The translations under genes were made by a program, and so were the position numbers. Positions 3,788-54,577 of a stretch of 57,920 nucleotides of DNA are shown here, piece after piece. Origin of the DNA: Patescibacteria group bacterium (GTDB lineage: Bacteria > Patescibacteriota > Minisyncoccia > Minisyncoccales > Staskawiczbacteraceae); NCBI GenBank assembly GCA_018829965.1, contig JAHJTG010000013.1:1-57920 (forward strand), in the 5' to 3' direction. Positions within the stretch are counted from its first letter, which is position 1, and each line of letters opens with the position of its first letter. Under the pieces are notes generated by a model that saw only the letters and a list, made by a program, of their open reading frames with translations, made no database searches and was not told the origin of the DNA.

Positions 3788-4105
3788 ATGACAACCATTT
3801 TAACTGATGAAAATTTCGAAAAAGAAATACAGGATATAAATAAACCGGTTTTGGTCGATTTTTTTGCTACTTGGTGCGGACCATGCGCTATTTTAGGCCC
3901 GATTTTAGAAAAAATAGCAAATGAATTAAAAGATAAAATTGTTTTAATAAAAGTTGACCTTGATAATGTTCCCTTAATTGCCCAAAAATTTGGAATTGAT
4001 AGAATTCCTACTGTTATTCTTTTCAAGGCTGGAAAGCCAGTAGATGGTTTTATGGGATTAAGAGTAGAAGGGGATATTAAAGAATGGTTAGAAAAGATAA
4101 TATAG
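3788..4105 (+). CDS. trxA: Thioredoxin
   Basis: WCGPC active site, 105 aa. Confidence 0.92.
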   Translation: MTTILTDENFEKEIQDINKPVLVDFFATWCGPCAILGPILEKIANELKDKIVLIKVDLDNVPLIAQKFGIDRIPTVILFKAGKPVDGFMGLRVEGDIKEWLEKII

Positions 4106-4178
4106 GCGACGAATCGCCTATATATTTAATCGCTCGGTCGGAATAAAAATAAATTTTTATTTCTCCCTCGCTCATAAA
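4101..4178 (+). repeat. Leader cassette family F, copy 1
   Basis: Hairpin ATAGGCGA-CGAA-TCGCCTAT, then TATATTTAATCGCTCGGTCGGAAT..hairpin..TTCTCCCTCGCTCATAAAT. It ends 9 nt before ATG 4188. Confidence 0.8.
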
Positions 4179-4187
4179 TATAAAAAT

Positions 4188-4469
4188 ATGAAAAAAGATA
4201 ATATCCAAGATAAAATCGATGATTTGAATAAATGGTATGCTGATTACGCTAAAGAGAACGGATTCAAATTAAATCCCAAAAAAGAAATTACGCAAAAATT
4301 AATGAGAGGTTTATTGGAAAACGAGAAAAAATATGGTCAAAGATGTTGTCCGTGTAGAAGAGCCACGGGAGACAAAGAGACGGATGCAAAAATCGTTTGT
4401 CCTTGTTCTTACCATCGCGACGAGATTGAGAAAAATGGGCAGTGTCTTTGCGGATTGTTTATAAAGTAG
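4188..4469 (+). CDS. Ferredoxin:thioredoxin reductase catalytic-subunit-like protein
   Basis: CPC-x16-CPC-x...-C-x-C pattern (CCPCRR..VCPCSYH..QCLCGLF) typical of the FTR catalytic chain. Confidence 0.7.
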   Translation: MKKDNIQDKIDDLNKWYADYAKENGFKLNPKKEITQKLMRGLLENEKKYGQRCCPCRRATGDKETDAKIVCPCSYHRDEIEKNGQCLCGLFIK

Positions 4470-4481
4470 TATAATAAATAA

Positions 4482-4598
4482 ATATATAGATTTTTAAAAA
4501 TCTATATATTTGTGCGTTCGGTCGGAATGAAAATTTCGGTTGTTAAAAATAAAAACGTTATTTTCTCCTTCCTTAGCTCTCATCCCTTCCTCATTTAC
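4482..4598 (+). repeat. Leader cassette family F, copy 2
   Basis: Palindrome ATATATAGATTTTTAAAAATCTATATAT, then TTGTGCGTTCGGTCGGAATGAAAAT...CATCCCTTCCTCATTTAC. Confidence 0.8.
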
Positions 4599-4626
4599 AA
4601 ATATAATTAATAATCATTTTAATAAT

Positions 4627-4836
4627 ATGAGTAAAATATCTATTCTCGCGAAAATAATTTTTATAGTTATATTTCTGATTTTTGCTGTTGCCTTTTTTCT
4701 GTATAAGCAGTATATGTTTTCTTTCCTTACGCTTGTCGTTATACTTGTTATTTCAAGATGGGATAGGGTAAAGAAATTAATTGCCGGCCGAGGCAGGGTA
4801 GAGGTTCAGATAGAAAAAGATAAGGATGTAAAATAA
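4627..4836 (+). CDS. Small membrane protein (hypothetical)
   Basis: Start moved from 4540 to ATG 4627 because the first 29 track codons lie inside repeat F2. Hydrophobic 69-aa product. Confidence 0.45.
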   Translation: MSKISILAKIIFIVIFLIFAVAFFLYKQYMFSFLTLVVILVISRWDRVKKLIAGRGRVEVQIEKDKDVK

Positions 4837-4846
4837 GGGAAAAAGA

Positions 4847-4875
4847 TTGACTTTTAACAACGGCTAGGCTACTAT
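4847..4875 (+). promoter_or_regulatory. Sigma70-like promoter candidate (TTGACT-17-TACTAT)
   Basis: -35 at 4847-4852 and -10 at 4870-4875, about 110 nt upstream of the RRM gene. Confidence 0.4.
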
Positions 4876-4984
4876 AATATAGTAAGTTTCTATTGAATTT
4901 TCTTTCCCTTCTAATTTATTAATTTGGAAAAGAAACGAGATAGCAGGTCGGCTTACTCATTAATAAATTATTAAGGAAAAAAAT

Positions 4985-5242
4985 ATGTCCAAAAAATTAT
5001 TTGTAGGTGGATTATCATATGAAACCACCGGTGAAACCTTGAAAGAGGCTTTTGCTCAGATTGGAACAGTTGAATCAGCAAATGTGATCACTGATAAAAT
5101 ATCCGGTCGTTCAAAAGGATTTGGTTTTGTTGAAATGTCTTCTGAAGAAGAAGCTAAAAAAGCTATTGAAACATTGAATGGCAAAGAGATTGATGGAAGA
5201 AATGTTACAGTGAACGAAGCTAAACCTTTAGCGCCTCGTTAA
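4985..5242 (+). CDS. RRM-type RNA-binding protein
   Basis: RNP-2 LFVGGL and RNP-1 KGFGFVEM. Confidence 0.88.
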   Translation: MSKKLFVGGLSYETTGETLKEAFAQIGTVESANVITDKISGRSKGFGFVEMSSEEEAKKAIETLNGKEIDGRNVTVNEAKPLAPR

Positions 5243-5267
5243 GTAGACAGTTTCAAAGTTTGAAAAA

Positions 5268-5306
5268 GTCCCCTATACAGCTATGCTGTCGGGGATTTTT
5301 TCTTTT
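5268..5306 (+). terminator. Rho-independent terminator
   Basis: GTCCCC..ACAGC-TAT-GCTGT..GGGGAT followed by TTTTTTC. Confidence 0.6.
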
Positions 5307-5333
5307 TAAGCGTTGTGGTATTATAGAATAATT

Positions 5334-5452
5334 ATAGAGATTATTAGTAATCTATATAATTGGTTCGCTCGCTCGGAATGAAAATTTCGGTTGTCAAAAT
5401 AAAAGTAAATTTTTATTTTTTCCTCCCTCAGTTTTCATTCCTTACTCGCTGC
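5334..5452 (+). repeat. Leader cassette family F, copy 3
   Basis: TATAGAGATTA-TTAG-TAATCTATATA, then ATTGGTTCGCTCGCTCGGAATGAAAAT...TTTTCATTCCTTACTCGCTG. Confidence 0.8.
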
Positions 5453-5476
5453 CAATTATTAACATCATTTAAAAAC

Positions 5477-11664: not shown

Positions 11665-11725
11665 AAACGATAATCATAGTCGTAACACTAAAGGTCGTTG
11701 GCTACAAAATTAACAAACATAGAAC

Positions 11726-11843
11726 AAATCCTAAACACTAAATCCTAAATCCTAAATAAATTCAAAATAACAAATCCAAAAGGTTTTGAATTTTAAAATT
11801 TAGATTTTGAAATTGTTTAGAGTTTAGATATTAGAATTTAGGG
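11726..11843. repeat. Intergenic palindromic element family B (CCTAAATCC/GGATTTAGG words), copy 1
   Basis: AAATCCTAAACACTAAATCCTAAATCCTAAAT...centre...TTTAGAGTTTAGATATTAGAATTTAGGG. Confidence 0.75.
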
Positions 11844-11854
11844 CTTGTAATTGT

Positions 11855-12130
11855 ATGACGCCAGATCAATTTGTAAAATTAATGGAGAACCCGACAACAA
11901 GCGTACCACTTTTCTCTGCGTGGTTTTTATTAGTAGCTTGGTCTCTTATTTGGAAAGGTATTGCCTTATGGAAGGCGAGTCAAAATCGTAGCAAGGTTTG
12001 GTTTATTCTTCTTTTGATAGTAAACACTATGGGCATATTGGAAATCCTCTATATTTTTTGGTTCAGCAAGAAAAGCTGTTGTTTTGGAAAGAAAAAAGAA
12101 GAGCAGTTGCCGATGAACCCGCCACAATAG
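11855..12130 (+). CDS. Small membrane protein (DUF5652-like)
   Basis: WSLIWKGIALWKASQNRSKVWFILLLIVNTMGILEILYIF, two TM spans. Confidence 0.55.
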   Translation: MTPDQFVKLMENPTTSVPLFSAWFLLVAWSLIWKGIALWKASQNRSKVWFILLLIVNTMGILEILYIFWFSKKSCCFGKKKEEQLPMNPPQ

Positions 12131-14264: not shown

Positions 14265-14660
14265 ATGCGTATATCAAAAAAATCACAATACGGCCTTCGT
14301 TCAATGGTTTATCTTGCAAAAAAATCTTCAAAAGATAACCCTTGCTCGATAAACGAAATCTCAAAAAAAGAGAATGTCCCTTTTGAGTTTCTGGGGAAAA
14401 TAATGTCTGAATTGGAAAAAGCGAATTTGGTTAAAACAAAAAAAGGAGTAAGCGGAGGATATTTTTTAGCAAAGTCGGCAAACAAAATTACGCCAGGCGA
14501 TATAGTTTTAGCATTAGAGGAAAATACCGAATTGGTTAATTGTTCTGGTTGTCCGATGGCAGGCAGCTGTTCCAGCGAAGATGTTTGGGACGAGGTTCAA
14601 GAATCAATGGACAACAGCTTGAATGCAAAAACTTTAGCAGACTTAATTAAGAGAAAATAA
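14265..14660 (+). CDS. Rrf2-family transcriptional regulator (IscR-like)
   Basis: MRISKKSQYGLRSMVYLA N-terminus and a C-terminal Cys cluster CSGCPMAGSC. Confidence 0.85.
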   Translation: MRISKKSQYGLRSMVYLAKKSSKDNPCSINEISKKENVPFEFLGKIMSELEKANLVKTKKGVSGGYFLAKSANKITPGDIVLALEENTELVNCSGCPMAGSCSSEDVWDEVQESMDNSLNAKTLADLIKRK

Positions 14661-14748
14661 TATAGAAATGGCTTCACCGTTTATATAATTAATCGTTCGG
14701 TCGGAATATATAAAAACGAGTTTTCATATATTCCTCCCTTTTTCATAA
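14661..14748 (+). repeat. Leader cassette family F, copy 4
   Basis: TATAGAAATGG..CCGTTTATATA, then ATTAATCGTTCGGTCGGAATATATAAAAAC-GAG-TTTTCATATATTCCTCCC. It ends 2 nt before ATG 14751. Confidence 0.8.
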
Positions 14749-14750
14749 TT

Positions 14751-16001
14751 ATGAAGCATGTATATTTTGATTATGCGGCGACAACGCCGGTTGATTCTCG
14801 CGTAAAAAAAGCGATGCTCCCTTATTTTTCAGAAAAATTCGGGAATACAATGTCTCTCCATAGTTTCGGCCAAGAGGCAAAATTAGTTTTAGAAAAGAGC
14901 AGGGAAACAGTGGCGGATTTAATTAGAGCTAAACCTGAAGAAATAATTTTTACCGGTTCGGCAACCGAAAGCAATAATTTGGCGTTAAAAGGCATAGCAT
15001 TTGCGAATCAGAATAAGGGGCATACCCGCCTGCATCGCTATGCCAGCCCGCATCGCTACGCCAGTCCGCAGCAGATACAGCGTTTCTGGCGGGCGAAGCG
15101 TTGCGGGCAGGTAATAATTTCTCCGATTGAACATCCTTGTATTATTGAAACTGCAAAATGGCTGCAAAAGCAGGGTTTTCAGATAACAAAACTAAAGGTT
15201 GATAAATACGGAATGGTTAATCCTTTAGCTCTTGAAAAAGAAATTAGGAAAGATACTATTTTAGTTTCTGTGATTCACGCCTCAAATGAAATCGGCACAA
15301 TCCAACCGATAGAAAAAATTGGAAAGATCTGTCGCAACAAGGGAGTATATTTCCACACAGATGCTGTTCAAAGCTTTGGAAAAATCCCCATTGATGTAAA
15401 TAAGATGAACATAGATTTGCTGACTGCAAGCTCTCATAAGATGTATGGTCCCAAGGGAGCTGCTTGTTTGTATATAAGAGAGGGTGTAAGAATAGAGCCG
15501 ATTTTGCACGGTGGAGGCCAAGAAAGAGGATTAAGGTCTTCAACTGTGAATATTCCTGCAATTGTCGGTTTTGCCAAGGCTTGTGAAATCTGCAAGAAGG
15601 AAATGGGGAAAGAAGCTCAAAGGTTGATTAAATTAAGAGATAAATTAATAAGGAATGTTTTAAAGATAAAAGGCAGTTATTTAAACGGTCATCCTCAAAA
15701 AAGATTGCCGAATAATGCTAATTTCCGTTTTGATTTCATAGAAGGGGAATCAATAATTTTACGATTGGATCTGCTCGGAATAGCTGTCTCAACCGGTTCT
15801 GCTTGTTCTTCAATAAAATTAGAGCCAAGTTCTGTTCTTTTAGCAACAGGCTTGAAGCCGGCAGAAGCTCATGGTTCTTTGCGCATTTCTTTGGGTCGCT
15901 GGACTACGGAAAAAGAAATCGATTATTTAATAAAAGTTTTGCCGGGAATAATAAATCAATTAAGAAAAATTTCACCGTTTAAGGTTATAAAATCCGCATA
16001 A
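14751..16001 (+). CDS. iscS: Cysteine desulfurase (IscS/NifS type)
   Basis: PLP-lysine motif SSHKMYGPKG and catalytic loop GSACSS. It contains a ~29-aa insert. Confidence 0.9.
   Translation: MKHVYFDYAATTPVDSRVKKAMLPYFSEKFGNTMSLHSFGQEAKLVLEKSRETVADLIRAKPEEIIFTGSATESNNLALKGIAFANQNKGHTRLHRYASPHRYASPQQIQRFWRAKRCGQVIISPIEHPCIIETAKWLQKQGFQITKLKVDKYGMVNPLALEKEIRKDTILVSVIHASNEIGTIQPIEKIGKICRNKGVYFHTDAVQSFGKIPIDVNKMNIDLLTASSHKMYGPKGAACLYIREGVRIEPILHGGGQERGLRSSTVNIPAIVGFAKACEICKKEMGKEAQRLIKLRDKLIRNVLKIKGSYLNGHPQKRLPNNANFRFDFIEGESIILRLDLLGIAVSTGSACSSIKLEPSSVLLATGLKPAEAHGSLRISLGRWTTEKEIDYLIKVLPGIINQLRKISPFKVIKSA
15024..15111 (-). repeat. GC-rich intragenic hairpin element, family GCI-1 (in iscS, inverted orientation)
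   Basis: ACCCGCCTGCATCGCTATGCCAGCCCGCATCGCTACGCCAGTCCGCAGCAGATACAGCGTTTCTGGCGGGCGAAGCGTTGCGGGCAGG is the reverse complement of the Nudix copy minus one 18-nt unit. Confidence 0.9.
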
Positions 16002-19913: not shown

Positions 19914-19934
19914 ATATTTGACTTAAAACATGTA

Positions 19935-19960
19935 TTAAAGTAGGATAAACCTACTTTTAA
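19935..19960 (+). terminator. Terminator-like hairpin
   Basis: AAAGTAGG-ATAAA-CCTACTTT followed by TAATAAAAAA. Confidence 0.45.
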
Positions 19961-19996
19961 TAAAAAACATAATCAAGGTCGAGCTCTTAAAATAAA

Positions 19997-20061
19997 CCTT
20001 ACGAATTACAAATCAAACCGAATTACGAATTCGTAATTCGAAAATATTCGTAATTCGTAGG
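19997..20061. repeat. Intergenic palindromic element family D (ACGAATTACGAAT / ATTCGTAATTCG), copy 1
   Basis: CCTTACGAATTACAAATCAAACCGAATTACGAATTCGTAATTCGAAAATATTCGTAATTCGTAGG. Confidence 0.8.
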
Positions 20062-20074
20062 AAATTAGGAAATT

Positions 20075-21168: not shown

Positions 21169-21173
21169 ACTAA

Positions 21174-21310
21174 AATTCTAAGCACTAAACTCTAAATCCT
21201 AAACAAATTCAAATGTTTCAAATTCCAAATTCCAAACGACGACGGGTTTGTGATTTATAGTATTGTGATTTGGGATTTATTTAGAATTTAGAAATTAGGA
21301 TTTAGAATTT
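21174..21310. repeat. Intergenic palindromic element family B, copy 2
   Basis: TTCTAAGCACTAAACTCTAAATCCTAAAC...TTTAGAATTTAGAAATTAGGATTTAGAATTTC. It ends 4 nt before ATG 21315. Confidence 0.75.
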
Positions 21311-21314
21311 CATT

Positions 21315-22636: not shown

Positions 22637-22808
22637 CAACACCCGGTGTTGTTAAATCAATTAAATCAACACCCGGTGTTGAACACCCGTGTTGTATAAA
22701 ATATTTGTAAAAAAGTACACAAAAGTAAAACAATAAAACAATTAGAACACTTCGCATTAACGGAACACTAACGGAACACCCGGTGTTCCGTTAATAAACG
22801 GTGTTCTA
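22637..22808 (+). repeat. REP-like cluster (left of the RAYT gene)
   Basis: CAACACCCGGTGTTG at 22637 and 22667, CGGAACACCCGGTGTTCCG at 22782, and degenerate half-sites between them. Confidence 0.85.
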
Positions 22809-22820
22809 TTAATAAATTAT

Positions 22821-23546
22821 ATGCCTTCAAGAGAAGTTCAATTTTATCCAGGAGAATTTTATCATATTTATAATCGTGGCAACGCAAAGCAGGATATTTT
22901 TTATAATGACAGGGATAGATATAGATTTCTTCAAGCAATGTATTTATCAAATAATAGCGATTGTTCTGTTCGGCTAATGGAATTAGAAAAAAATAAAAGC
23001 GGATATACCCTTGCCGATATAAAAAAAGTTTTTAATGAAGGAAAAATTTCTTATAATCCATTGGTTAGAATAAGCGCTGATGTTTTAATGCCTAATCATT
23101 TTCATTTGCTGATTGAGGAACTGCAAGAGAAGGGGATCAGTCGTTTTATGCAGAGGTTGGGAGATAGTTACGGGAAATATTTTACTATAAAATATGATCG
23201 TCCGGGCAGTTTGTTCCAGGGTCGTTTTAAGGCAGTTCATATAAAAAATGACGATCAACTTAGATATTTATTGGCTTATATTAATGCGATAAACCCGGCG
23301 CAATTAATAGAACCAAAAATTAAAGAAAAAGGTATTGAGGATTTCCAAAAAATATTAGAAGGAATAAATAAATATTCATGGGGTACTCATTTTGAATATA
23401 TGGGCAAGAGAGAATCTGCTATTATTGATAAAGGATTATTGGGAAAAATTTTTTCAACTCCAGAAATTTATTACGAATTTATCAAAGAAATTTTACATGG
23501 GAAAGAAGATATGTGGAGCCCCATAGAAGGATTAATGCTTGATTGA
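22821..23546 (+). CDS. IS200/IS605-like HUH Y1 transposase, REP-associated tyrosine transposase (RAYT)-like
   Basis: HUH motif LMPNHFHLLIEE, Tyr motif LAYINAINPA, N-terminal FYHIYNRGN. Confidence 0.75.
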   Translation: MPSREVQFYPGEFYHIYNRGNAKQDIFYNDRDRYRFLQAMYLSNNSDCSVRLMELEKNKSGYTLADIKKVFNEGKISYNPLVRISADVLMPNHFHLLIEELQEKGISRFMQRLGDSYGKYFTIKYDRPGSLFQGRFKAVHIKNDDQLRYLLAYINAINPAQLIEPKIKEKGIEDFQKILEGINKYSWGTHFEYMGKRESAIIDKGLLGKIFSTPEIYYEFIKEILHGKEDMWSPIEGLMLD

Positions 23547-23554
23547 TTGAAAAT

Positions 23555-23670
23555 GGTGTTTCAACACCCGGTGTTGAACACCAGGGAATCAACACCCGGT
23601 GTTGATTGAACGCCCCTCAACACCCGAAACGCTCAACACGAATACTCAACACCCGGTGTTGAACACCCGA
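23555..23670 (+). repeat. REP-like cluster (right of the RAYT gene)
   Basis: TCAACACCCGGTGTTGA at 23561, 23589 and 23646, plus half-sites CAACACCCGAAAC and GAACACCCGAAAA. Confidence 0.85.
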
Positions 23671-23796
23671 AAATTTATAACCGGTACCAATTTTTTTAAC
23701 AAAATACTTGGCTTGACAGAGATTTTTATGGTAAAATATATTAATTATAAGCATATTTTGGGATTAAGAACTCCCAGAAGTTTTATTGCATAAAAA

Positions 23797-26700
23797 ATGT
23801 TGTGGCAGATGAAAAATAAAACAAGCGGGTTTCGTAAATCTGGCTTGTGGAACACCCGGTGTTCCACAAGTGGTAAATCCGCCAGGCTAAAATCTTTTTT
23901 GAGTTCGCTATTAAACGGGATTATAATCGCCGGTATTTTTTCATTTATCTTTTACGCTTTTGCCGCGCCACCCGATAGTCCCTATAATCCAGGAGAAATT
24001 CTTAATCCCAGTTGTGCGCCGGGGGATGCTTATTGTACAGTGCTTACGCCAGCAATTTCTGGTAATAATACTGACATCACCGGCCTAAGAGGACTGAATA
24101 CTCAAGAAGCAATTAAAATTTCGCCTTTTGGAACTTCAACAGGTGAAACAGGAGAAATTAGATTTTTGGAATTATCTGCCGGTGGAACTAATTATATTGG
24201 CTTTAAATCTTCGGATAGTTTAACTGCTAATGTTATTTGGGTTTTGCCGGATGCAGACGGAAGTACAAGTCAAGCTTTAATAACCAATGGCTCAGGTAGT
24301 TTAAGTTGGGGAGACGTTCAAGCTTACGATGCTGATTTAACAACTTACGCGGGAATAACTCCAAGCGCTAATATTCAATCATTTCTTGGTTCAGCCGACT
24401 ATGCTACTGCAAGAACTAATCTCGGAGTTGCTATTGGAAGCAATGTTCAAGCTTACGAAGCAACACTTACAGGGCTCGCTAGCATGCCAGCTACTGTAGG
24501 TTTTGTGAAACAGACAGCAGAAAATGTATTTGGAATAGATGAGAGCGTTTATCTCACTGCTGAAACCGACCCTGTTGTGAAAGCCCTTACTGGCATAATT
24601 AAATCTGATGGTTCTACAATATCCGCAATTACCGACAATTCTTCTAATTGGGACGCGGGATATACTTATCGTCTCATTTCTGCCAGCGGAACTTCTCCTT
24701 TAACCTTAACTTTAGCGAGCAATGGATTAACAGGGAGCATAGCCGATGCTACCGCTTCAACAAAAGGAATTGCATCGTTCAATTCCACAAACTTTTCTGT
24801 AGCTTCTGGCGCGGTAAATACGATACAGGATATAGCGACAACTTCTAGCCCTACTTTTGCAGGACTGACTTTAAGCGCCGCAAACATTGTAACCGACACG
24901 ACAACAGGAACAAAAATAGGAACAGCAACTGACCAGAAGCTCGGGTTTTTCAACGCTACTCCTGTTATTCAGCCGACAAGCACCACTGAACTAAGACAAG
25001 CTTTAATTGATCTGGGGTTATACGCTTCAGGCGGAGCAACTCCGCTTAATTTAAATGGCGGGGCGTTTACCACCACAGGCACTCTCGGAGCAGGGGCGAT
25101 AACAGGGACTTCTCTGAGTGCTGGTTCTGGAACACTTACCGCGGGGATAGGAACATTAACAAGCCTTAATCTTACGGCAGATACCAATCAGATAGTTTTA
25201 GATTCCGATGGGACATATACCACTACCCTTACAGGTGGTGCAACTGGTTCATCTAAAATTATTACTTTTCCCGATATTACTGGGACCGTTGCCCTTACTA
25301 CAGGAGCAGGTGGTTTATCTTCTTATCTACCACTTGTAGGTGGCACTATGGCAGGAGATATTTTACTTACGGGAACAGTAAATCTTGGTGCTACTGGAAG
25401 CCGTTTTACTAATATATGGGGAACGACCATAACAGGGACTTCTCTTACCGACGGCACAGCAACTTTATCAGGGGGAAACCTAACTGGTATGGGTGATATT
25501 ACAGGAACGGATATTGACTTATCTTTAGGCACTGGTGATATTTTAACCTCTGGGACTTTAGGTGCAGGGGCTACTACTTTAACAGGTGATTTGATTGTAG
25601 ACGAACATAGCGTTTATATAAATAGTGCTTTGGGGGACGAAATTGCACCTGCACTTGAAGCCGCTAATTGGACTTTAGGTGCTATGTGGTCAGCAGGAGC
25701 AGGACAATTAGTAAGAACTTTCATTTATCCCGCATCAAGCACAGCAACCCCGTCAGGAACTTTTACGATTACAGCAGGTCATCTTTATAAAGTTACAATT
25801 ACCGCCTCTGCAGTTAGCGGAACAATTACTTATACGCTTGGTGGTGTGTCGGGAACGGCTATCACAGCAACGACAATTACAGATTATATAACAGCCACAA
25901 CTACTGGTAAGATAATCTTTACAGGTGCACCATCGGCTACTTGCACGATAACTTCTGTAAGTGTTAAAGAGGTTACTACTGATGGTGATTTGACGGTTCA
26001 GGGAGATGCGTCTATTTGGGGTGATTTGACAATTACGGGCACGGTTCTAGATGTAGCGAAAATTGAGAGAGCTTATATAGGAACATCTGGTTATGACTTG
26101 CCGTCAGCTACAAGTTATTTCACAGTAGCACATGAAGGTTCTGGATTTATTAAAATGGCTGGTTTTACAAACGTTGCGGAAAGTGGCACTGCTATTCGTG
26201 CTATGAGAGGACGAGGAACGATAGCATCTCCAGCAGTTGTCGCTGAGAATGATAGAATGTTTGCGTTTCAAGCGGGTGCTTTGGATTCCGACCTTGCCGA
26301 GAACTTTCCCGCACAAATGGCTTTTTATGTTGATGGTGCTGTTAGTGCTGGGAATATCCCCACAAGGTTTTCTATCAGCACAGGATATTCAGCAGGAACA
26401 AGAACAGAATATTTAATAGTAAAATCATCAGGTGATGTATGGTTGCCCGTAGATGACCAAGAATTATTATTTGGCACGGCACACGACTTTGGAATAACCT
26501 TTAACGGAAGTGGTGGTGTAATTCAATCTGATTTAGTAACCGCAACCGACTACTTACAACTGCGTGGCGGGACAAATGGGATAGATTTTAATATAGGGGC
26601 AACGGAACAGATAAGTTTAATTGATGGTGTATTGCAACCCACAACTACAAATGATATAGATTTAGGAACTTCCTCGTTGCTTTACAAAGATATTTGGGAA

Positions 26701-31448: not shown

Positions 31449-31500
31449 CGGTGTTCAACACCCGGTGTTGCGGAGTGGTGCGTTCAACACCCGGTGTTGC
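31449..31500 (+). repeat. REP-like pair
   Basis: CAACACCCGGTGTTG at 31456 and 31485, both preceded by GTGTT/GCGTT. Confidence 0.85.
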
Positions 31501-35744: not shown

Positions 35745-35821
35745 CCGCAACACTGACTCCGCAACACCGGGTGTTGAACACATTGAACACAATGTCCGGG
35801 TGTGGAACACCGGGTGTTCCA
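35745..35821 (-). repeat. REP-like cluster, inverted orientation (AACACCGGGTGTT)
   Basis: GCAACACCGGGTGTTGA at 35761, TGGAACACCGGGTGTTCCA at 35803, with degenerate copies between them. Confidence 0.85.
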
Positions 35822-38075: not shown

Positions 38076-38078
38076 ACT

Positions 38079-38172
38079 ATCAGCGTAAATCCGCTATCAT
38101 CGGCGTAATCAAAAAAGGTATTTCAATACACAGAAAAGATTACCGCTGATTAATAGCTGATTGTCACAGATA
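38079..38172 (+). repeat. Intergenic palindromic element family A, copy 1
   Basis: ATCAGCGTAAATCCGCTATCATCGGCGTAATC...GATTACCGCTGATTAATAGCTGATTGTCACAGATA fills the rpsL-rpsG spacer. Confidence 0.85.
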
Positions 38173-38177
38173 AAAAA

Positions 38178-38648: not shown

Positions 38649-38786
38649 TCGCTCGGTAGTAGCCATAAAAGTGGCGATAATCCAAACCCCTTACTCCGCA
38701 ACACCCGGTGTTGCGGACGTCAATCGGAGAAACCATGCAAAATCGCCTGCGAGAGGCACTTTTATAACTACCACCTCGCTTAACAG
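38647..38786 (+). repeat. Element with CGCTCGG...CCTCGCTTAACAG termini carrying a nested REP copy
   Basis: Left end AATCGCTCGGTAGTAG, right end CTACCACCTCGCTTAACAG, and inside them CCGCAACACCCGGTGTTGCGG (38696-38716). Confidence 0.65.
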
Positions 38787-38836
38787 TTTAAAAGTTAAAT
38801 CATTAAAAATTTATTAGAAATTAAAAATTCGTTATT

Positions 38837-40912: not shown

Positions 40913-41133
40913 CGCTCGGCAATAATATATGCGGGAGCACGGCGTCGGCTTAAGCAAAAACAGATTTATTCTCCCGCCGCGCCTATTTCTCGCCAAGCAC
41001 GTAGACAATATTATTCCGAGCCCTCATTAACAGCTTGTCTCCGAAGTGCTCCCGTATACATTATTGCCTCGCTCAACAGATTGGGAATTGAGCCTGCGAA
41101 ATTTACTTTTAAACTTATCGTCTCGCTTAACAG
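40912..41133 (+). repeat. Nested/tandem array of CGCTCGG...CCTC(G/A)YT(C/T)AACAG elements
   Basis: CGCTCGGCAATAATATATGCGGGAGCAC (40913-40940) pairs with GTGCTCCCGTATACATTATTGCCTCGCTC (41046-41074). Three right-end motifs lie at ~41023, 41067 and 41120. Confidence 0.65.
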
Positions 41134-41154: not shown

Positions 41155-41230
41155 ATATGAACTTCGTTCATATAATTACGTCGCTCGGTCGGAATGAAAA
41201 TAAATTTTCACTCCTCCTTCGTTAGTAATT
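41155..41230 (+). repeat. Leader cassette family F, copy 5 (orphan, no downstream plus-strand gene)
   Basis: ATATGAAC-TTC-GTTCATAT, then AATTACGTCGCTCGGTCGGAATGAAAAT-AA-ATTTTCACTCCTCCTTCGTTAGTAATT. Confidence 0.75.
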
Positions 41231-41259
41231 ATAGAAAGTAGAAAATAGAATTTTGAAAA

Positions 41260-41296
41260 TAAAAAAACGCCAAGCTCCGATTAAGGAATTTGGCGT
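41260..41296 (-). terminator. Rho-independent terminator (minus strand)
   Basis: On the minus strand: ACGCCAA-loop-TTGGCGT followed by TTTTTTT. Confidence 0.6.
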
Positions 41297-41343
41297 ATAC
41301 TACGAGTGGTTGGCCATTGGCGTGAATCGTAGAGCTATGTCGG

Positions 41344-41517
41344 CTACGGTTCGGGAATTTCCCGTTCCAATAATAGGTTGCTAAGATCGCTAAAAATAGA
41401 AGAAGGAACCAATCTCCATCCATTTTCCCCTTCTTCATTAAGCGTTTTAATCACTTCAAATAAACATTTTAAGCCGGTAGGTATTTTAACAATTTTGTAT
41501 TCGTACTTCTTTCCCAT
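41344..41517 (-). CDS. 57-aa DUF4177-like protein
   Basis: MGKKYEYKIVKIPTGLK...LNEEGENGWRLV pattern, in a different frame from track ORF 41229-41438. Below the 60-aa track cutoff. Confidence 0.55.
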   Translation of the reverse strand: MGKKYEYKIVKIPTGLKCLFEVIKTLNEEGENGWRLVPSSIFSDLSNLLLEREIPEP

Positions 41518-41715
41518 CTTAAGCCCTTTCGTATAAAAATAAAAAGAACAATTAATTTAACAGTATAATTTTATTAACAAAATAAACCATGATTGTCAGG
41601 ATTTTTGAAAATTAGACTATTCCAGAGTTAATTTCGCTTGACTATATCCCAAATATTTAATAAGATAACAGATATTGTTTAAAAATTAAAAAATTAATAA
41701 TTAATTAAAAATATT

Positions 41716-41833
41716 ATAGAGGCGATAAATCGCCTATATATTTAATCGCTCAGTCAGAATGAAAGTTTCGGTCGTCGAAAATAACTTTGTTATTTTCTCC
41801 CTTCCTCAGTTTTCATTCTTTCTTCGCTCATAA
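41716..41833 (+). repeat. Leader cassette family F, copy 6 (upstream of tuf)
   Basis: AGGCGA-TAAA-TCGCCT, then ATATATTTAATCGCTCAGTCAGAATGAAAGT...TTTTCATTCTTTCTTCGCTCATAAAT. It ends 2 nt before ATG 41836. Confidence 0.8.
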
Positions 41834-41835
41834 AT

Positions 41836-43032
41836 ATGGCAGTAGAAAAATTCGAGAGGTCAAAACCTCATATAAATATCGGTACCATTGGTCACGTTGA
41901 CCATGGCAAAACCACTTTATCGGCCGCAATTATGAAGATTTCAAAATTGCGCGGTTTTAAGTGTTCGGATAAGAGCGTTGATCAAATCGACGCATCTCCG
42001 GAAGAAAAAGCAAGAGGGGTGACGATTTCAATTACTCACTTAGAATTTGAAACAGAAAAAAGGCATTATGCTTTGATTGATTGCCCGGGTCACGCTGACT
42101 ATATTAAAAATATGATTACAGGAGCTGCCCAAATGGACGGCGCGATTTTATTAGTTTCTGCCCCAGATGGGCCAATGCCTCAAACAAAAGAGCATGTTCT
42201 TTTAGCCCGTCAGGTTGGTTTGCCAACCTTAGTTGTCTTTTTGAATAAAGTTGACCAAGTTGATGACCCAGAAATTTTAGAATTAGTTGAATCAGAGGTA
42301 AAAGAATTATTGAAGAAATATAAATATCCTGGAGATGAAATTCCTATTATAAGGGGTTCAGCTTTGAAGGCTTTAGAAGCTAAATCAGCTGATGATGAAA
42401 ATGCAAAGTGTATTATTCAATTGTTAGACGCAGTAGACAACTATATTCCCGAACCTTCCAGAGAATTAGATAAACCTTTTATTATGGCAGTTGAAGATGT
42501 TTTCTCAATTGAAGGTAGGGGAACAGTAGCTACGGGAAGAATTGAAAGAGGTATTGTCAAATCTAATGAAGAAGTAGAAATAGTCGGTATTAAACCAACT
42601 TCAAAAACAGTCGTGGTTTCAGTTGAAATGTTTAATAAGTCCTTAGATGAGGGAAGAGCGGGCGATAATGTAGGCTTGCTTTTGAGGGGTATTAAAAAAG
42701 AAGATATTGAAAGAGGTCAGGTTTTGGCTAAAGCCGGTTCAATTACTCCTCACACTGAATTTGAAGGCGAAGTTTATGTTTTAACAAAAGAAGAAGGCGG
42801 TCGTCATACCCCGTTCTTTTCAGGTTATAAGCCACAACTTTATATTAGAACAACTGATATTACTGGTGACGTAACATTGCCAGCAGGAACTGAAATGGTA
42901 ATGCCAGGTGATACCGCCAATTTAACAGTTAAATTAATCGCCCCAGTTGCATTAGAAGAAAAACAAAGATTTGCGATTAGAGAAGGAGGCAAAACAGTCG
43001 GCGCAGGAGTAGTTACCAAAATTATCAAATAA
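41836..43032 (+). CDS. tuf: Elongation factor Tu
   Basis: [22 protein letters not shown]. Confidence 0.97.
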
Positions 43033-43035
43033 TTT

Positions 43036-43170
43036 TGGAAATCCCAAATCCAAAATCCTAAATTCTAAACAAATCCAAATATCAAAATCAAAAATCCAAA
43101 ACACGTTTTGAATTTTGAAAATTTGAGTTTTGAACTTATTTAGGATTTAGTGCTTAGTATTTAGAATTTC
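43036..43170. repeat. Intergenic palindromic element family B, copy 3
   Basis: GGAAATCCCAAATCCAAAATCCTAAATTCTAAAC...AAACACGTTTTG...TTTAGGATTTAGTGCTTAGTATTTAGAATTTC. Confidence 0.75.
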
Positions 43171-43190
43171 AAAAAATTAGATTTTTTGTC

Positions 43191-43592: not shown

Positions 43593-43724
43593 AGTAGTCC
43601 CTCTTGTAATTGAGAGGGATATATTGTAGAATTGCAATAATTATGGAGATAAAATATTTTTAATAAAAAATCCGAAGTTAAGTCCTTAGTTTTTAAATAC
43701 CGGGCTTAATGCCCGGTATTCAGT

Positions 43725-43806
43725 TATATGGATAGTGAAGCTATCCATATAATTAATCGTTCGGTCGGAATGATAATGAATTCTCATCCCTTCCTCACTC
43801 ATAATT
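43725..43806 (+). repeat. Leader cassette family F, copy 7 (upstream of rplC)
   Basis: TATATGGATAG-TGAA-CTATCCATATA, then ATTAATCGTTCGGTCGGAATGATAATGAATTCTCATCCCTTCCTCACTCATAATT. Confidence 0.8.
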
Positions 43807-43813
43807 ATAAAAA

Positions 43814-45563: not shown

Positions 45564-45620
45564 GGTATAGCGTTTAGCGTATAGTTAACTGAACCCTGAA
45601 CCCTGAACCCTAAACCCTAA
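45553..45620 (+). repeat. Intergenic element family C (TAGCGTATAGGG.. / ..AACCCTAAACCC), copy 1
   Basis: TAGCGTCTAGGGTATAGCGTTTAGCGTATAGTTAACTGAACCCTGAACCCTGAACCCTAAACCCTAA. It contains the rplD stop codon. Confidence 0.8.
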
Positions 45621-45634
45621 TTATAAAAATAATC

Positions 45635-46093: not shown

Positions 46094-46095
46094 AT

Positions 46096-46204
46096 ATCAG
46101 CGTAAATCCGCTATCATCAGCGTAATCAGAAGAGTCATTTCACGACCCGCAAGCGGGTACCCCGAAAAAGATAACTGCTGATTAATAGCTGATTGCCACA
46201 GATT
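46096..46204 (+). repeat. Intergenic palindromic element family A, copy 2 (with nested GC hairpin)
   Basis: ATCAGCGTAAATCCGCTATCATCAGCGTAATC..CACGACCCGC-AA-GCGGGTACCCCG..ATAACTGCTGATTAATAGCTGATTGCCACAGAT. Confidence 0.85.
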
Positions 46205-46211
46205 AAAAAAC

Positions 46212-47039: not shown

Positions 47040-47040
47040 T

Positions 47041-47134
47041 ATTAGCGTAAATCCGCTATCATCGGCGTAATCAAAAAAAGTATTTCAACACACAGAAAAG
47101 ATTACCGCTGATTAATAGCTGATTACCACAGATA
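47041..47134 (+). repeat. Intergenic palindromic element family A, copy 3
   Basis: ATTAGCGTAAATCCGCTATCATCGGCGTAATC...GATTACCGCTGATTAATAGCTGATTACCACAGATA. Near-identical to copy 1. Confidence 0.85.
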
Positions 47135-47139
47135 AAAAC

Positions 47140-48080: not shown

Positions 48081-48084
48081 GATG

Positions 48085-48151
48085 TAGCGTATGGGGTATA
48101 GCGTTTAGCGTATAGTTAACTAAACCCTAAACCCTAACACCTAAACCCTAA
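48085..48151 (+). repeat. Intergenic element family C, copy 2
   Basis: TAGCGTATGGGGTATAGCGTTTAGCGTATAGTTAACTAAACCCTAAACCCTAACACCTAAACCCTAA. Confidence 0.8.
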
Positions 48152-48155
48152 AAAG

Positions 48156-48809: not shown

Positions 48810-48810
48810 T

Positions 48811-48938
48811 CCTACGAATTACGAATTAAACCGAATTACGAATAAAAAATTCGTAGTGAAAGGTGAAAGTTCGTAAATTCGTACAACCGTACAACACTTT
48901 CCGTATATTCGTAATTCGAAAATATTCGTAATTCGTAA
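48811..48938. repeat. Intergenic palindromic element family D, copy 2
   Basis: CCTACGAATTACGAATTAAACCGAATTACGAAT...ATTCGTAATTCGAAAATATTCGTAATTCGTAAG. Confidence 0.85.
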
Positions 48939-48944
48939 GAGAAC

Positions 48945-49355: not shown

Positions 49356-49420
49356 TAGCGTAGGGTATAGCATCTAGGGTATAGCTTATAGTTAACTAAA
49401 CCCTAAACCCTAAAACCTAA
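49356..49420 (+). repeat. Intergenic element family C, copy 3
   Basis: TAGCGTAGGGTATAGCATCTAGGGTATAGCTTATAGTTAACTAAACCCTAAACCCTAAAACCTAA. Confidence 0.8.
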
Positions 49421-49425
49421 AAAAT

Positions 49426-49611: not shown

Positions 49612-49717
49612 ATCCTAAATTCTAAATCCTAAATAAATTCAAATATAAAAGTTCAAAATCAAAAATGTTTAGAATTTAGAAATTAGAGCTTAGAATTTCT
49701 TTTACGAAGTAAAAGTA
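49603..49717. repeat. Intergenic palindromic element family B, copy 4
   Basis: AAATCCTAAATCCTAAATTCTAAATCCTAAAT...TTTAGAATTTAGAAATTAGAGCTTAGAATTTC plus terminal hairpin CTTTTAC-GAA-GTAAAAG. Confidence 0.8.
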
Positions 49718-49719
49718 AT

Positions 49720-49953: not shown

Positions 49954-50015
49954 CGTTAGCGTCTAGGGTATAGCGTATAGTTAACTAAACCCTAAATCCT
50001 AAACCATAAACCCTG
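49951..50015 (+). repeat. Intergenic element family C, copy 4
   Basis: TAGCGTTAGCGTCTAGGGTATAGCGTATAGTTAACTAAACCCTAAATCCTAAACCATAAACCCTG. Its first TAG is the rpsQ stop. Confidence 0.8.
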
Positions 50016-50020
50016 AAAAA

Positions 50021-50389: not shown

Positions 50390-50408
50390 AAGATCAGAAA
50401 GAATACAC

Positions 50409-50516: not shown

Positions 50517-50522
50517 AAAAAT

Positions 50523-52168: not shown

Positions 52169-52186
52169 ATTAAAATATCAGCGTAA

Positions 52187-52270: not shown

Positions 52271-52275
52271 AAATT

Positions 52276-54575: not shown

Positions 54576-54577
54576 CT

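What the first reader, a model, noticed from the sequence alone, without database searches (positions are those of the whole stretch)
4101..5452. Seven-copy two-hairpin leader cassette (family F) with compensatory stem changes
Seen: copies lie at 4101, 4482, 5334, 14661, 41155, 41716 and 43725, and they share one architecture. Hairpin 1 has a TATA-type base, but its stem sequence differs in every copy while pairing is kept: ATAGGCGA/TCGCCTAT, ATATATAGATTTTT/AAAAATCTATATAT, TATAGAGATTA/TAATCTATATA, ATATGAAC/GTTCATAT, AGGCGA/TCGCCT, TATATGGATAG/CTATCCATATA. This is followed by the conserved (A/T)TTAATCG(C/T)TCGGTCGGAATGAAAAT, a second variable hairpin, and TTTTCATTCC(T)TCCTC(G)CTCATAA. Six copies sit directly upstream of plus-strand start codons: the FTR-like gene, a small membrane protein, a secreted coiled-coil protein, iscS, tuf and rplC. 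One copy is an orphan. The arms TCGGTCGG and CCTTCCTC would pair as alternating 2-bp GC steps and pyrimidine-pyrimidine mismatches. The 3' arm is CCUCC-like, i.e. it resembles the anti-Shine-Dalgarno rather than an SD. Hairpin 1 also doubles as the terminator-like stem of the upstream gene (e.g. trxA) and is followed by TATAAT-like words. Inference: this is a portable terminator/promoter/leader module or a structured 5'-UTR regulator. The covariation in hairpin 1 argues that structure (RNA or ssDNA), not sequence, is under selection.
Basis: partly seen in the sequence, partly recalled or inferred. Interest (0 to 1): 0.72.

Follow-up and report, generated by a model that had tools for sequence, protein, structure and literature searches.

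The report
Hairpin repeat inserted before start codons
An ~85-base non-coding repeat that folds into two hairpins has been copied, always in the direction of the neighbouring genes, into the short gaps in front of start codons in this and many other Parcubacteria (CPR) genomes. It is an acquired insert whose structure is kept by selection, not the genes' original leader, promoter or terminator.

Summary
A covariance model finds exactly the seven listed copies, all on the + strand. Both hairpins keep pairing through compensatory changes, in the window and in about 47 further copies from unrelated metagenome contigs.

The interpretation needs revision. In three related genomes the sites upstream of tuf and rplC lack the cassette. 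The window keeps the native tuf promoter and leader, with the cassette inserted a few bases before the ATG. So family F is a dispersed, duplicative insert.

- All 54 copies examined lie in the sense of the abutting gene.
- 21 of 54 supply the upstream gene's stop codon at their left edge.
- 15 of 54 contain the downstream ATG at their right edge.
- About nine sit in 3' ends with no gene behind them.

The TATAAT-like word is one strand of a covarying outer helix. Hairpin 1 is weak and has no U-tract. The host lineage appears to lack Shine-Dalgarno pairing.

Best reading: a MITE-like intergenic repeat carried on the mRNA sense strand, probably targeting TA, whose two-hairpin fold is kept by selection. 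Its mobilising factor and any RNA function are unknown. There is no Rfam or literature match, and no RNA-seq was available.

The parts
4100..4182 (+). Copy 1. Hairpin 1 at 4100-4123 (ATATAGGCGA cgaa TCGCCTATAT). Hairpin 2 at 4118-4182. The trxA stop codon TAG (4103-4105) lies in the 5' arm of hairpin 1. The FTR-like gene's ATG is at 4188.
   Evidence: 83.9 bits; -23.3 kcal/mol, z -4.6
4480..4605 (+). Copy 2. Hairpin 1 is a perfect 16-bp palindrome at 4480-4511. Hairpin 2 at 4502-4605. The small-protein ATG is at 4627.
   Evidence: (52.7 bits)
4535..4576 (+). Nested inner module of copy 2: TTCGGTTGTT, an AU stem, then TTCTCCTTCCTTAG. It is a second clamp-plus-stem inside the loop of hairpin 2.
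   Evidence: read directly
5333..5460 (+). Copy 3. Hairpin 1 at 5333-5358. Hairpin 2 at 5352-5460. It lies downstream of a terminator and an extended -10-like TGGTATTAT. The DUF5667 protein's ATG is at 5477.
   Evidence: (64.5 bits)
5386..5431 (+). Nested inner module of copy 3: TTCGGTTGTC, an AU stem, then CCTCCCTCAG.
14660..14753 (+). Copy 4, between the Rrf2 regulator gene (stop TAA at 14658-14660) and iscS. The iscS ATG (14751-14753) lies inside the outer helix.
   Evidence: (53.3 bits)
41155..41233 (+). Copy 5, the orphan, in the enlarged fusA-tuf spacer. No downstream +-strand gene follows; it faces the end of a minus-strand DUF4177 gene.
   Evidence: (85.8 bits)
41715..41838 (+). Copy 6, inserted into the tuf 5' leader a few nt before the ATG (41836-41838). 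The native promoter TTGACT-17-TAAGAT (41638-41666) and the AT-rich leader are kept upstream.
   Evidence: (59.8 bits)
41765..41809 (+). Nested inner module of copy 6. A contig from the same metagenome has identical flanks but ATTAA in its place, at single-copy depth.
   Evidence: joint 41764->41810
43724..43809 (+). Copy 7, inserted between the conserved hairpin ACCGGGCTTAATGCCCGGT and the rplC ATG (43814). Absent from this site in three relatives.
   Evidence: (77.1 bits)

Best explanation
Family F is a non-coding, non-autonomous interspersed repeat. The basic unit is about 80-95 nt; copies with an internally duplicated module reach about 125 nt. It is MITE-like in behaviour.

Where it sits. 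It has been copied into the short AT-rich spacers of this Parcubacteria genome and of many others. It always lies in the sense of the flanking genes. Typically it sits directly after (or supplies) the stop codon of the upstream gene and directly before (or contains) the ATG of the downstream gene.

What it is not. It is not the ancestral leader, promoter or terminator of those genes. Native promoters and leaders remain upstream, and orthologous sites in relatives are empty.

How it folds (inferred to be co-transcribed with the host mRNA).
- Hairpin 1 has an AU-rich base, (T)ATAGAAAT / ATTTATAT, with a conserved G.A mismatch and a freely covarying apex.
- Hairpin 2 has an outer AU helix that includes the TATAAT-like word.
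- Next comes a 'clamp' of GC steps separated by conserved pyrimidine-pyrimidine mismatches, CGCUCGGUCGG / CCUCCCUCGCU.
- Innermost is an AU helix.

What is shown: multicopy status, insertion relative to relatives, strict sense orientation, and compensatory evolution of both hairpins.

What is inferred:
- Insertion at TA dinucleotides, in TAA/TAG stop codons and in TATG start contexts. This would explain the stop codon at the left junction and the ATG at the right junction.
- Selection keeps the fold, and only the sense orientation, because an 85-nt insert between cistrons must stay compact and harmless on the mRNA. The host seems to have no SD/anti-SD pairing and uses very short spacers.
- The invariant clamp is the site recognised by whatever factor copies or binds the element.
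For: Multicopy status:
- Seven window copies by covariance model; none in about 60 kb of orthologous DNA from three relatives.
- Depth over the core is about 9x single copy in the source metagenome, and there are further copies at genome depth outside the window.
- Copies 1 and 6 share a private hairpin-1 and outer-stem subtype, which points to duplication within this genome.

Insertion:
- Alignments of the tuf and rplC upstream regions show a clean 124-nt and about 85-nt extra block in the window. Promoter, leader and the rplC-upstream hairpin are conserved on either side. A TA is present at the empty site in the relatives.

Spread:
- 52 metagenome matches, about 44 of them real. Together with further copies in the same loci this gives 54 distinct copies.
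- They lie in contigs whose ribosomal proteins are 56-82% identical to the window's, at many different junctions of the r-protein cluster and before other housekeeping genes.

Orientation:
- 54 of 54 copies are sense to the abutting gene. L138 carries copies on both contig strands and L162 has one in a divergent spacer; each follows its gene.

Junctions:
- The upstream stop codon lies inside or at hairpin 1 in 35 of 54 copies. It is exactly the TAG/TAA of the ATAGAAAT box in 21.
- The ATG lies within the outer helix in 15 of 54, and within 48 nt in 45 of 54.
- Orphans sit between a stop codon and a terminator.

Structure:
- Hairpin 1 is 89% paired against about 40% in slid controls, with 60 double-change cells against at most 14.
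- Hairpin 2 is 91.9% paired against about 50%, with 8 pairs showing double changes against 0-2.
- Folds have z scores of -3.1 to -4.7.

Host context:
- The 16S 3' end of an element-bearing organism reads GGAUCAUUUUUUU, with no CCUCC.
- About half of Parcubacteria lack the anti-SD (PMC9297842).
Against: - No terminal inverted repeats beyond an AT-only TATA..AATT resemblance.
- No variable target-site duplication of 3 nt or more. A TA duplication cannot be told apart from element sequence.
- No transposase with matching ends was found. The only Y1 transposase-like gene in the window is flanked by a different repeat family.
- The relatives used as empty sites are not close (L2 protein about 75% identical), so loss rather than gain is not formally excluded.
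- Transcription of the element is inferred only. No RNA runs could be found.
- G.U versus A.C counts do not favour the sense strand.
- The antisense strand would fold about 4.7 kcal/mol better. So RNA-level selection on the sense strand is not proven.
- Strict sense orientation, enrichment before highly expressed genes, and near-invariance of the clamp across organisms with saturated synonymous sites all fit a real RNA function better than a merely tolerated insert.
Confidence: 0.6

Rival explanations
1. Dedicated cis-acting RNA module. The element is kept because it does something on the mRNA. Candidate roles:
- a 5'-proximal or intercistronic stabiliser and insulator, with hairpin 2 blocking 5'-exonuclease RNase J after processing and hairpin 1 protecting the upstream fragment;
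- a platform for SD-independent initiation or re-initiation, in which the pyrimidine-mismatch clamp binds a protein or the ribosome.

Its dispersal is secondary.
For: - Strict sense orientation, 54 of 54.
- Placement within 0-48 nt of start codons of highly expressed genes: r-proteins, EF-Tu, RecA, MreB, SHMT, RNase J.
- The clamp and helix bases are as conserved as codon positions 1-2 of neighbouring r-protein genes, while synonymous sites are near saturation.
- The clamp-plus-stem module is reduplicated inside the loop in four copies. The same CGCUCGG...CCUCGCU clamp closes an unrelated ~140-nt structured element.
- RNase J is encoded in an element-bearing contig.
- The host lacks SD/anti-SD pairing.
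- An RRM RNA-binding protein gene lies between copies 2 and 3.
Against: - Absent from the same genes in relatives, which express tuf and rplC without it.
- About nine copies have no gene behind them.
- Distances to stop and start codons are not fixed.
- Different subfamilies occupy the same junction in different organisms.
- No transcript data.
- The conservation estimate is inflated because loci were found with an exact 20-mer from the element.
Confidence: 0.25
2. Portable terminator/promoter cassette. Hairpin 1 ends the upstream transcript. TAGAAA-N15-18-TATAAT restarts transcription. Hairpin 2 is then the new 5' leader.
For: - The consensus copy matches 10 of 12 sigma-70 positions, and copy 5 is called promoter-like.
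- TATAAT is nearly invariant.
- Hairpin 1 of copy 6 is called terminator-like on the + strand.
- The conserved G of ATAGAAAT coincides with the G of TTGACA.
Against: - Positions 2-3 nt after the TATAAT word covary with bases about 50 nt downstream (AU, GC, UA and CG types). A position inside the word switches A-U to U-A together with its partner. That requires a transcript, or a single strand, that starts upstream of the presumed start site.
- The spacer is 15-16 nt in 26 of 39 copies.
- Hairpin 1 is weak, has no U-run, and is unlike the GC-rich terminators of the same genome.
- Only 1 of 7 window copies scores as a promoter and 1 of 7 as a + strand terminator.
- Canonical promoters persist upstream of copies 3, 6 and 7.
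- Orphan copies fire into terminators.
- One copy lacks hairpin 1 altogether (L158:834).
Confidence: 0.1
3. Single-stranded-DNA hairpin transposon of the IS200/IS605 or REP-RAYT kind. On this reading the hairpins and the mismatched clamp are recognition structures for a Y1 HUH enzyme. They matter in DNA, not in RNA.
For: - The window encodes a Y1 transposase-like / RAYT-like protein (22821-23546). It matches PF01797 at 27.8 bits (Pfam cut-off 23) and NCBIfam REP_Tyr_transpos at 30.9 bits, well below that model's cut-off of 80. A different palindromic repeat has 15 sites in the window. So this kind of machinery may exist in the genome.
- No target duplication is detectable.
- The mismatches are strand-asymmetric. 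On the minus strand they become tandem G.A pairs and fold better.
- G.U and A.C counts are balanced.
Against: - No conserved tetranucleotide target on the left flank.
- Hairpins 1 and 2 are unlike each other, whereas IS200/IS605 ends share one hairpin.
- The RAYT-like gene is flanked by AACACCCGGTGTT repeats, not by F.
- Orientation follows the local gene direction across a strand switch and in a divergent spacer, not one replication strand.
- The hairpin-1 apex varies freely, which is unexpected for a sequence-specific binding site.
Confidence: 0.12

Closest known systems
Co-transcribed MITE-like intergenic repeats of other bacteria: ERIC/IRU in enterobacteria, Correia/NEMIS in Neisseria, BOX and RUP in pneumococcus (from general knowledge)
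   Same: - Short, non-coding and multicopy.
- Inserted in intergenic spacers, with TA targets reported for Correia and ERIC.
- Present or absent at orthologous sites.
- Transcribed with neighbouring genes and folding into hairpins that can alter mRNA processing or stability; some carry promoter-like words.
   Different: - Those elements have long terminal inverted repeats that form one hairpin, and they occur in both orientations.
- F has two unlike hairpins, no real inverted termini and sense-only orientation.
- F has a conserved pyrimidine-mismatch clamp.
- F is shared by organisms whose ribosomal proteins are only about 56-82% identical.
bcr1-type repeats of the Bacillus cereus group (from general knowledge)
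   Same: Dispersed ~150-nt repeats with a predicted RNA structure supported by compensatory changes, found near gene ends and transcribed.
   Different: Different sequence, size and host. A TTTAT duplication is reported for bcr1. No such variable duplication is seen for F.
REP / REPIN elements with their RAYT transposase
   Same: Hairpin-forming intergenic repeats. A RAYT-like gene flanked by its own palindromic repeats is present in this same window.
   Different: - F is not the repeat that flanks the RAYT-like gene.
- F lacks a conserved head tetranucleotide.
- F lies mostly 5' of start codons rather than at 3' ends.
- F is strictly sense-oriented.
Ribosomal-protein mRNA leaders and 5'-terminal stabiliser stem-loops (e.g. 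the S10/L4 leader; ompA, aprE and ermC 5' hairpins; from general knowledge)
   Same: Structured RNA directly upstream of ribosomal-protein and other highly expressed genes. A 5' hairpin next to the start codon could protect against RNase J.
   Different: - Leaders are single-copy, gene-specific and conserved at orthologous sites.
- F precedes unrelated genes, is absent in relatives at the same genes, and has orphan copies.
- No Rfam family matches.

Membership tests
MITE (miniature inverted-repeat transposable element) | Small, non-coding, many copies per genome | tested here: met
   Seven copies in 58 kb, no ORF, basic unit about 80-95 nt. Further copies at genome depth outside the window.
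MITE (miniature inverted-repeat transposable element) | Presence/absence at orthologous sites | tested here: met
   tuf and rplC upstream sites are empty in L121, L123 and L125. Caveat: these relatives are only about 75% identical in L2.
MITE (miniature inverted-repeat transposable element) | Terminal inverted repeats | tested here: not met
   The ends read TATAGAAATT... and ...AATTATA. Only an AT-only 4+4 nt resemblance exists. The two hairpins are internal and unlike each other.
MITE (miniature inverted-repeat transposable element) | Target-site duplication | tested here: inconclusive
   No variable duplication of 3-5 nt above cross-copy background. A TA duplication fits both empty sites but cannot be separated from element sequence.
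MITE (miniature inverted-repeat transposable element) | Related autonomous element with the same ends | tested here: inconclusive
   None seen in the window ORFs that were scanned or noticed in about 0.45 Mb of loci. There was no systematic protein scan of the loci.
REP/REPIN-RAYT system | The repeats flank, and are recognised by, a RAYT (Y1 HUH) gene | tested here: not met
   The RAYT-like gene 22821-23546 is flanked by AACACCCGGTGTT palindromes, not by F.
IS200/IS605-derived element (PATE) | Conserved target tetra- or pentanucleotide 5' of the left end, and similar subterminal hairpins at both ends | tested here: not met
   Left flanks vary (aaa, aat, att, cag and others). Hairpins 1 and 2 share no stem sequence.
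Intrinsic (Rho-independent) terminator | Stable GC-rich stem followed by a U-tract | tested here: not met
   Most metagenome copies of hairpin 1 fold at -2 to -7 kcal/mol and are followed by AUAUAAUU. Only 1 of 7 window copies is flagged on the + strand. Bona fide terminators in the window are GC-rich with T-runs.
Sigma-70 promoter | -35 and -10 hexamers 16-18 nt apart that direct initiation | tested here: inconclusive
   TAGAAA and TATAAT match 10 of 12 positions in the consensus copy. The spacing is 15-16 nt in 26 of 39 copies. The -10 word and bases just 3' of it covary with a distant partner. Initiation cannot be tested without RNA data.
Gene-specific leader / riboswitch / r-protein autoregulatory RNA | Conserved at the orthologous gene across relatives; one or a few per genome | tested here: not met
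   Absent upstream of tuf and rplC in relatives. It precedes more than 25 different gene families.
Any Rfam 15 family | Score at or above the family's gathering threshold | tested here: not met
   No hits in the window at gathering threshold. Only chance-level hits at E up to 10 over copies 1-3.

The most novel reading that the evidence does not exclude
Family F, and perhaps the other intercistronic hairpin families of this genome, may be a dedicated RNA device of Parcubacteria that lack the anti-SD. On this reading it is a sense-only module whose conserved pyrimidine-mismatch clamp recruits a protein or the ribosome. It would either mark or boost SD-independent initiation and re-initiation at the adjacent AUG, or set processed 5' ends that resist RNase J. 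It would spread between gene junctions because it is useful there.
Probability: 0.2. Interest if true: 0.85.

Novelty: new variant of a known kind. Interest (0 to 1): 0.55.

Why it matters
CPR/Patescibacteria are uncultured for the most part, and almost nothing is known about how they start transcription and translation. About half of Parcubacteria lack the anti-Shine-Dalgarno sequence.

This is an 85-nt element, absent from Rfam and from the searched literature, that sits immediately before the start codons of ribosomal-protein genes, EF-Tu, RecA, MreB and others. It occurs in many such organisms, always in the sense direction, with both helices kept by compensatory change.

It is one of two things. 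It may be the first described family of structure-constrained mobile repeats in this radiation, which would be useful for assembly, strain typing and genome-dynamics work, since contigs break at it. Or it may be a handle on SD-independent gene expression.

It also shows that in this genome nearly every spacer of the ribosomal-protein operon has been colonised by hairpin repeats. That raises the question of how operon expression tolerates them.

Tried and rejected
- A 15-mer scan of the species-representative genome collection returned only chance hits in high-GC genomes. The one Patescibacteria hit lay inside a coding region. That scan was wasted.
- Four searches for RNA sequencing runs found none, so transcription starts, ends and processing could not be examined.
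- Laying Logan contigs of related strains gave no empty-site allele, because coverage was too low. It did show extra copies and a variant without the inner module.
- Rfam searches at gathering and at permissive thresholds gave nothing.
- Full-text searches for the motif and for CPR repeats or MITEs gave nothing relevant.
- An IMG/VR scan gave one chance hit and no phage copies.
- The wobble test for the functional strand (G.U versus A.C) was balanced and undecided. An earlier count based on minimum-free-energy folds was biased and was dropped.
- The loop statistics first looked like UUCG enrichment. Most cases are in fact C-UUC-G triloops, whose complement is the stable C-GAA-G, so they do not identify the strand.
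- Rejected by inspection (no tool call): boxA (Nus factor) similarity of the 3' end, because the positions that would matter covary with the 5' linker; known small ribozymes; a T-loop; K-turn or bulge-helix-bulge motifs.
- Nested transposition as the origin of the inner modules was rejected. They lack hairpin 1 and the outer helix, so they are internal reduplications.
- A fixed stop-to-start geometry for translational coupling is not seen.
Full report
**Source and setting.** The window is about 35% G+C, and nearly all genes are on the + strand. Its EF-Tu is 86-93% identical to proteins named Patescibacteria / Parcubacteria / Candidatus Staskawiczbacteria. The same sequence occurs in groundwater metagenomes. 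Rfam finds no known RNA in the window at gathering threshold.

**The observation.** The conserved 17-mer gives 6 hits at up to 3 mismatches against 0.26 expected. A covariance model built from hairpin 2 finds exactly these seven in the window, all on the + strand, at 52.7-85.8 bits. Hairpin 1 is different in each copy yet always pairs. The conserved blocks and the pattern of GC steps separated by pyrimidine-pyrimidine mismatches are as described. Folding gives the two-hairpin structure with z scores of -3.1 to -4.6.

Three refinements apply:
- An outer helix, TATA(A/T)TTxx with x'x'AA(T/A)TATA, encloses hairpin 2 and contains the TATAAT-like word.
- The inner stem is conserved rather than variable.
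- Copies 2, 3 and 6 carry a second clamp-plus-stem module nested in the loop.

**It is an insertion.** I fetched the tuf regions of three related genomes through EF-Tu homologues. Their L2 proteins are about 75% identical to the window's. All three have the same TTGAC(C/T)-17-TAnnAT promoter and the same AT-rich leader upstream of tuf. That includes a 22-nt stretch identical between L125 and the window. They then run straight into the ATG. The window has 124 extra bases, the whole of copy 6 including hairpin 1, between ...TTAAA and ATATG. Upstream of rplC all four genomes share the hairpin ACCGGGCTTAATGCCCGGT followed by (A/T)GTTA. Only the window then has copy 7. The covariance model finds no copy anywhere in about 60 kb of distinct sequence from these relatives. 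So the cassette is neither the ancestral leader nor the promoter of these genes.

**It is widespread.** A metagenome scan with a 20-position pattern from the core returned 52 loci. About 44 are low-GC contigs with the complete architecture. The rest are chance hits in high-GC DNA. Loose searches and the model found more diverged copies in the same loci, giving 54 distinct copies.

The consensus unit reads as follows:
- (T)ATAGAAAT-nnn-loop-nnn-ATTTATATAAT
- T-xx(x)-CG(Y)TCGGTCGG-AATGAAAAT-aaa-TTTTCA(C/T)T-CCTCCCTCGCT-x'x'-AATTAT(A/G)

Its length is remarkably uniform. Ribosomal proteins on these contigs are 56-82% identical to the window's. They are therefore often more distant than the relatives that lack the element at tuf and rplC.

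Downstream genes identified by Pfam are S17, L25, S11, L5, L13, L22, L17, L29, S19, L23, methionine aminopeptidase, RecA, SHMT, MreB, LemA and RNase J. By eye I also recognised L2, L4, L24, S8, L14, S14 and triose-phosphate isomerase. At least nine different junctions of the S10-spc cluster carry F in one organism or another. The three reference relatives have 2-10 nt spacers there.

No copy was found in IMG/VR. No Rfam family matches. No paper in the library contains the motif.

**Orientation and junctions.** All 54 copies lie in the sense of the gene that abuts them. L138 has two copies on one contig strand and one on the other, each matching its gene. L162 has a copy in a divergent spacer, oriented with the nearer gene. 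Orientation therefore follows transcription rather than a fixed replication strand.
- In 45 of 54 copies a same-strand ATG opens an ORF within -3 to +48 nt of the 3' end. In 15 the ATG is the last three bases of the outer helix (AATTATG).
- In 35 of 54 copies the stop codon of an upstream same-strand ORF lies inside or at hairpin 1. In 21 it is exactly the TAG or TAA of the ATAGAAAT box.
- About nine copies have no gene behind them. Several of these sit between a stop codon and a normal terminator.

Both empty sites have a TA at the insertion point. Insertion at TA with TA duplication would put TA+G, a stop codon, at the left junction. It would put TA+TG, restoring an ATG, at the right junction. 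That accounts for both junction features in compact operons, where the TA of stop codons and of TATG start contexts is almost the only harmless target. This step is inference. A search for variable duplications of 2-5 nt found none above background.

**Structure is under selection.**
- Hairpin 1, aligned from its conserved feet, is 89% paired against 37-59% when the partner is slid. It has 60 cells changed on both sides against at most 14, and a covariation score of 0.447 against 0.148 in shuffles. Position 4 is a conserved G.A mismatch in 28 of 36 copies.
- Hairpin 2 is 91.9% paired against about 50%. It has 8 pairs with double changes against 0-2.
- Double changes include one inside the TATAAT word (A-U to U-A, with TATATT paired to AAATAT). 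They also include the two positions just 3' of that word (AU, GC, UA and CG types).
- Same-junction copies in organisms with near-saturated synonymous sites differ in hairpin 1 by compensatory pairs, for example TTGC/GCAA against TTAC/GTAA upstream of rplE.

Caveats: the copies are paralogues with subfamily structure, so the events are fewer than the cells. The 20 core positions were fixed by the search. Palindromes can also self-correct by template switching without selection.

**Which strand matters is unresolved.** G.U and A.C oppositions are balanced: 9 against 5 in hairpin 1, and 27 against 31 in hairpin 2. The antisense strand would fold about 4.7 kcal/mol better as RNA in 38 of 45 copies. 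There the pyrimidine mismatches become tandem G.A pairs and the common A.C becomes G.U. The frequent CTTCG apex can be read as C(UUC)G on the sense strand or as the stable C(GAA)G on the other. The conserved asymmetry shows that one strand matters. The strict tie to gene direction points to the transcript or to the non-template strand. That is as far as the sequence evidence goes.

**Terminator and promoter.** Hairpin 1 folds at -2 to -7 kcal/mol in most metagenome copies. It is followed by AUAUAAUU, not a U-run. It looks nothing like the GC-rich terminators of this genome. The consensus scan flags hairpin 1 as a + strand terminator in one window copy, and flags one copy as promoter-like.

TAGAAA-N-TATAAT matches 10 of 12 promoter positions in the consensus copy. 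However, the spacer is 15-16 nt in 26 of 39 copies. The bases between the -10 word and the expected start site covary with a partner about 50 nt downstream. That partner relationship needs a strand that begins further upstream. Copies 3, 6 and 7 each have a separate promoter-like site upstream. A weak outward promoter cannot be excluded, but it is not what is being conserved.

**Host context.** One element-bearing contig (L161) carries the end of a 16S gene. After GGATCA it reads TTTTTTTAAAT, so CCTCC is missing. Tsurumaki et al. (PMC9297842) report that the anti-SD motif is detected in only 48% of Parcubacteria. Genes in the window mostly have A/T-rich sequence and no GGAGG before the ATG. 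The CCUCC-like arm is therefore unlikely to act as an anti-SD mimic.

The same genome is crowded with other hairpin-forming repeat families. They fill nearly every spacer of the ribosomal-protein operon. It also encodes a Y1 transposase-like / RAYT-like protein flanked by its own palindromic repeat. Hairpin repeats are evidently a general feature of this lineage.

**Conclusion.** The best-supported account is a non-autonomous, duplicative intergenic repeat with these properties:
- It inserts, probably at TA, into the tiny spacers before start codons.
- It survives only in the sense orientation.
- It is held to a two-hairpin fold.

It behaves like the co-transcribed MITE-type repeats of other bacteria. 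It differs in lacking inverted termini, in its strict orientation, in its conserved mismatch clamp, and in its breadth across a CPR clade. Whether it is only tolerated or actually used cannot be decided without RNA-end data. Possible uses are as an RNase J-resistant 5' structure, an insulator, or an aid to SD-independent initiation. I give the used reading about one chance in four or five.

Noticed in passing
window 22821-23546 (+); repeats at 22638-23863, 31457-31498, 35763-35818, 36364, 38700, 56598-56630: A 241-aa protein matches the Y1 transposase (IS200-like) Pfam family at 27.8 bits. Its best NCBIfam match is REP-associated tyrosine transposase at 30.9 bits, below that model's cut-off of 80. 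The gene is flanked by clusters of the palindrome AACACCCGGTGTT, which has 15 sites in the window against 0.05 expected. This looks like a REP/RAYT-type system in a CPR genome.
   Followed up: partly
window spacers 38076-38177, 43033-43190, 45564-45634, 46094-46211, 47040-47139, 48081-48155, 48810-48944, 49356-49425, 49612-49719, 49954-50020, 50390-50522, 52169-52275, 54491-54577; also 11665-11860, 19914-20064, 21169-21314: Nearly every spacer of the ribosomal-protein operon holds a 70-135-nt imperfect hairpin belonging to one of several other repeat families (ATCAGCGTAAATCCGC...; TAGCGTATAGTTAACTAAACCCTAAACCC; CCTAAATTCTAAAT.../...TTTAGAATTTAGG; ACGAATTACGAAT...). Relatives have 2-10 nt spacers at the same junctions.
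   Followed up: partly
window 38649-38790 and 40913-41075; L121 9641-9790, L122 4855-5004: A ~140-nt multi-stem element lies directly after rpsG and after fusA. It is closed by the same CGCUCGG...CCUCGCUUAAC clamp as family F and is conserved with compensatory changes in a relative (UAGUAG/CUACCA against CAGUAG/CUACUG). It folds at -40.1 kcal/mol with z -3.0. It has no Rfam match.
   Followed up: partly
window 43699-43718; L121 ~11715, L123 ~11725, L125 ~11705: The hairpin ACCGGGCTTAATGCCCGGT is conserved between rpsJ and rplC in the window and in all three relatives. It may be a ribosomal-protein leader or operator.
   Followed up: no
L161 minus strand, about 120-220 nt from the contig end: The 16S rRNA 3' end reads ...AAGTCGTAACAAGGCACGGGTAGCGGAAGCTGCTCGTGGATCATTTTTTTAAAT. 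The anti-SD CCTCC is replaced by a U-run. Many genes in the window have an A-run just before the ATG.
   Followed up: partly
window 4847-5242: An RRM-domain RNA-binding protein gene lies between copies 2 and 3. It has its own canonical promoter (TTGACT-17-TATAAT) and one of the few SD-like AAGGA sequences. It is a possible partner for pyrimidine-rich RNA.
   Followed up: no
L147 2028-2095: This is a variant copy. Its clamp is a perfect helix with a single tandem G.A (CGCTCGGGAGG...CCGACCGAGCG), as if the core were inverted relative to hairpin 1 and the outer helix.
   Followed up: no
window 41229-41517 (-): A small minus-strand DUF4177 gene with its own terminator sits in the fusA-tuf spacer. 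That spacer is 77-360 nt in relatives but 920 nt here.
   Followed up: no
L001 position 1; window 41715: A public assembly contig of the same organism ends exactly at hairpin 1 of copy 6, so the repeat breaks assemblies.
   Followed up: no
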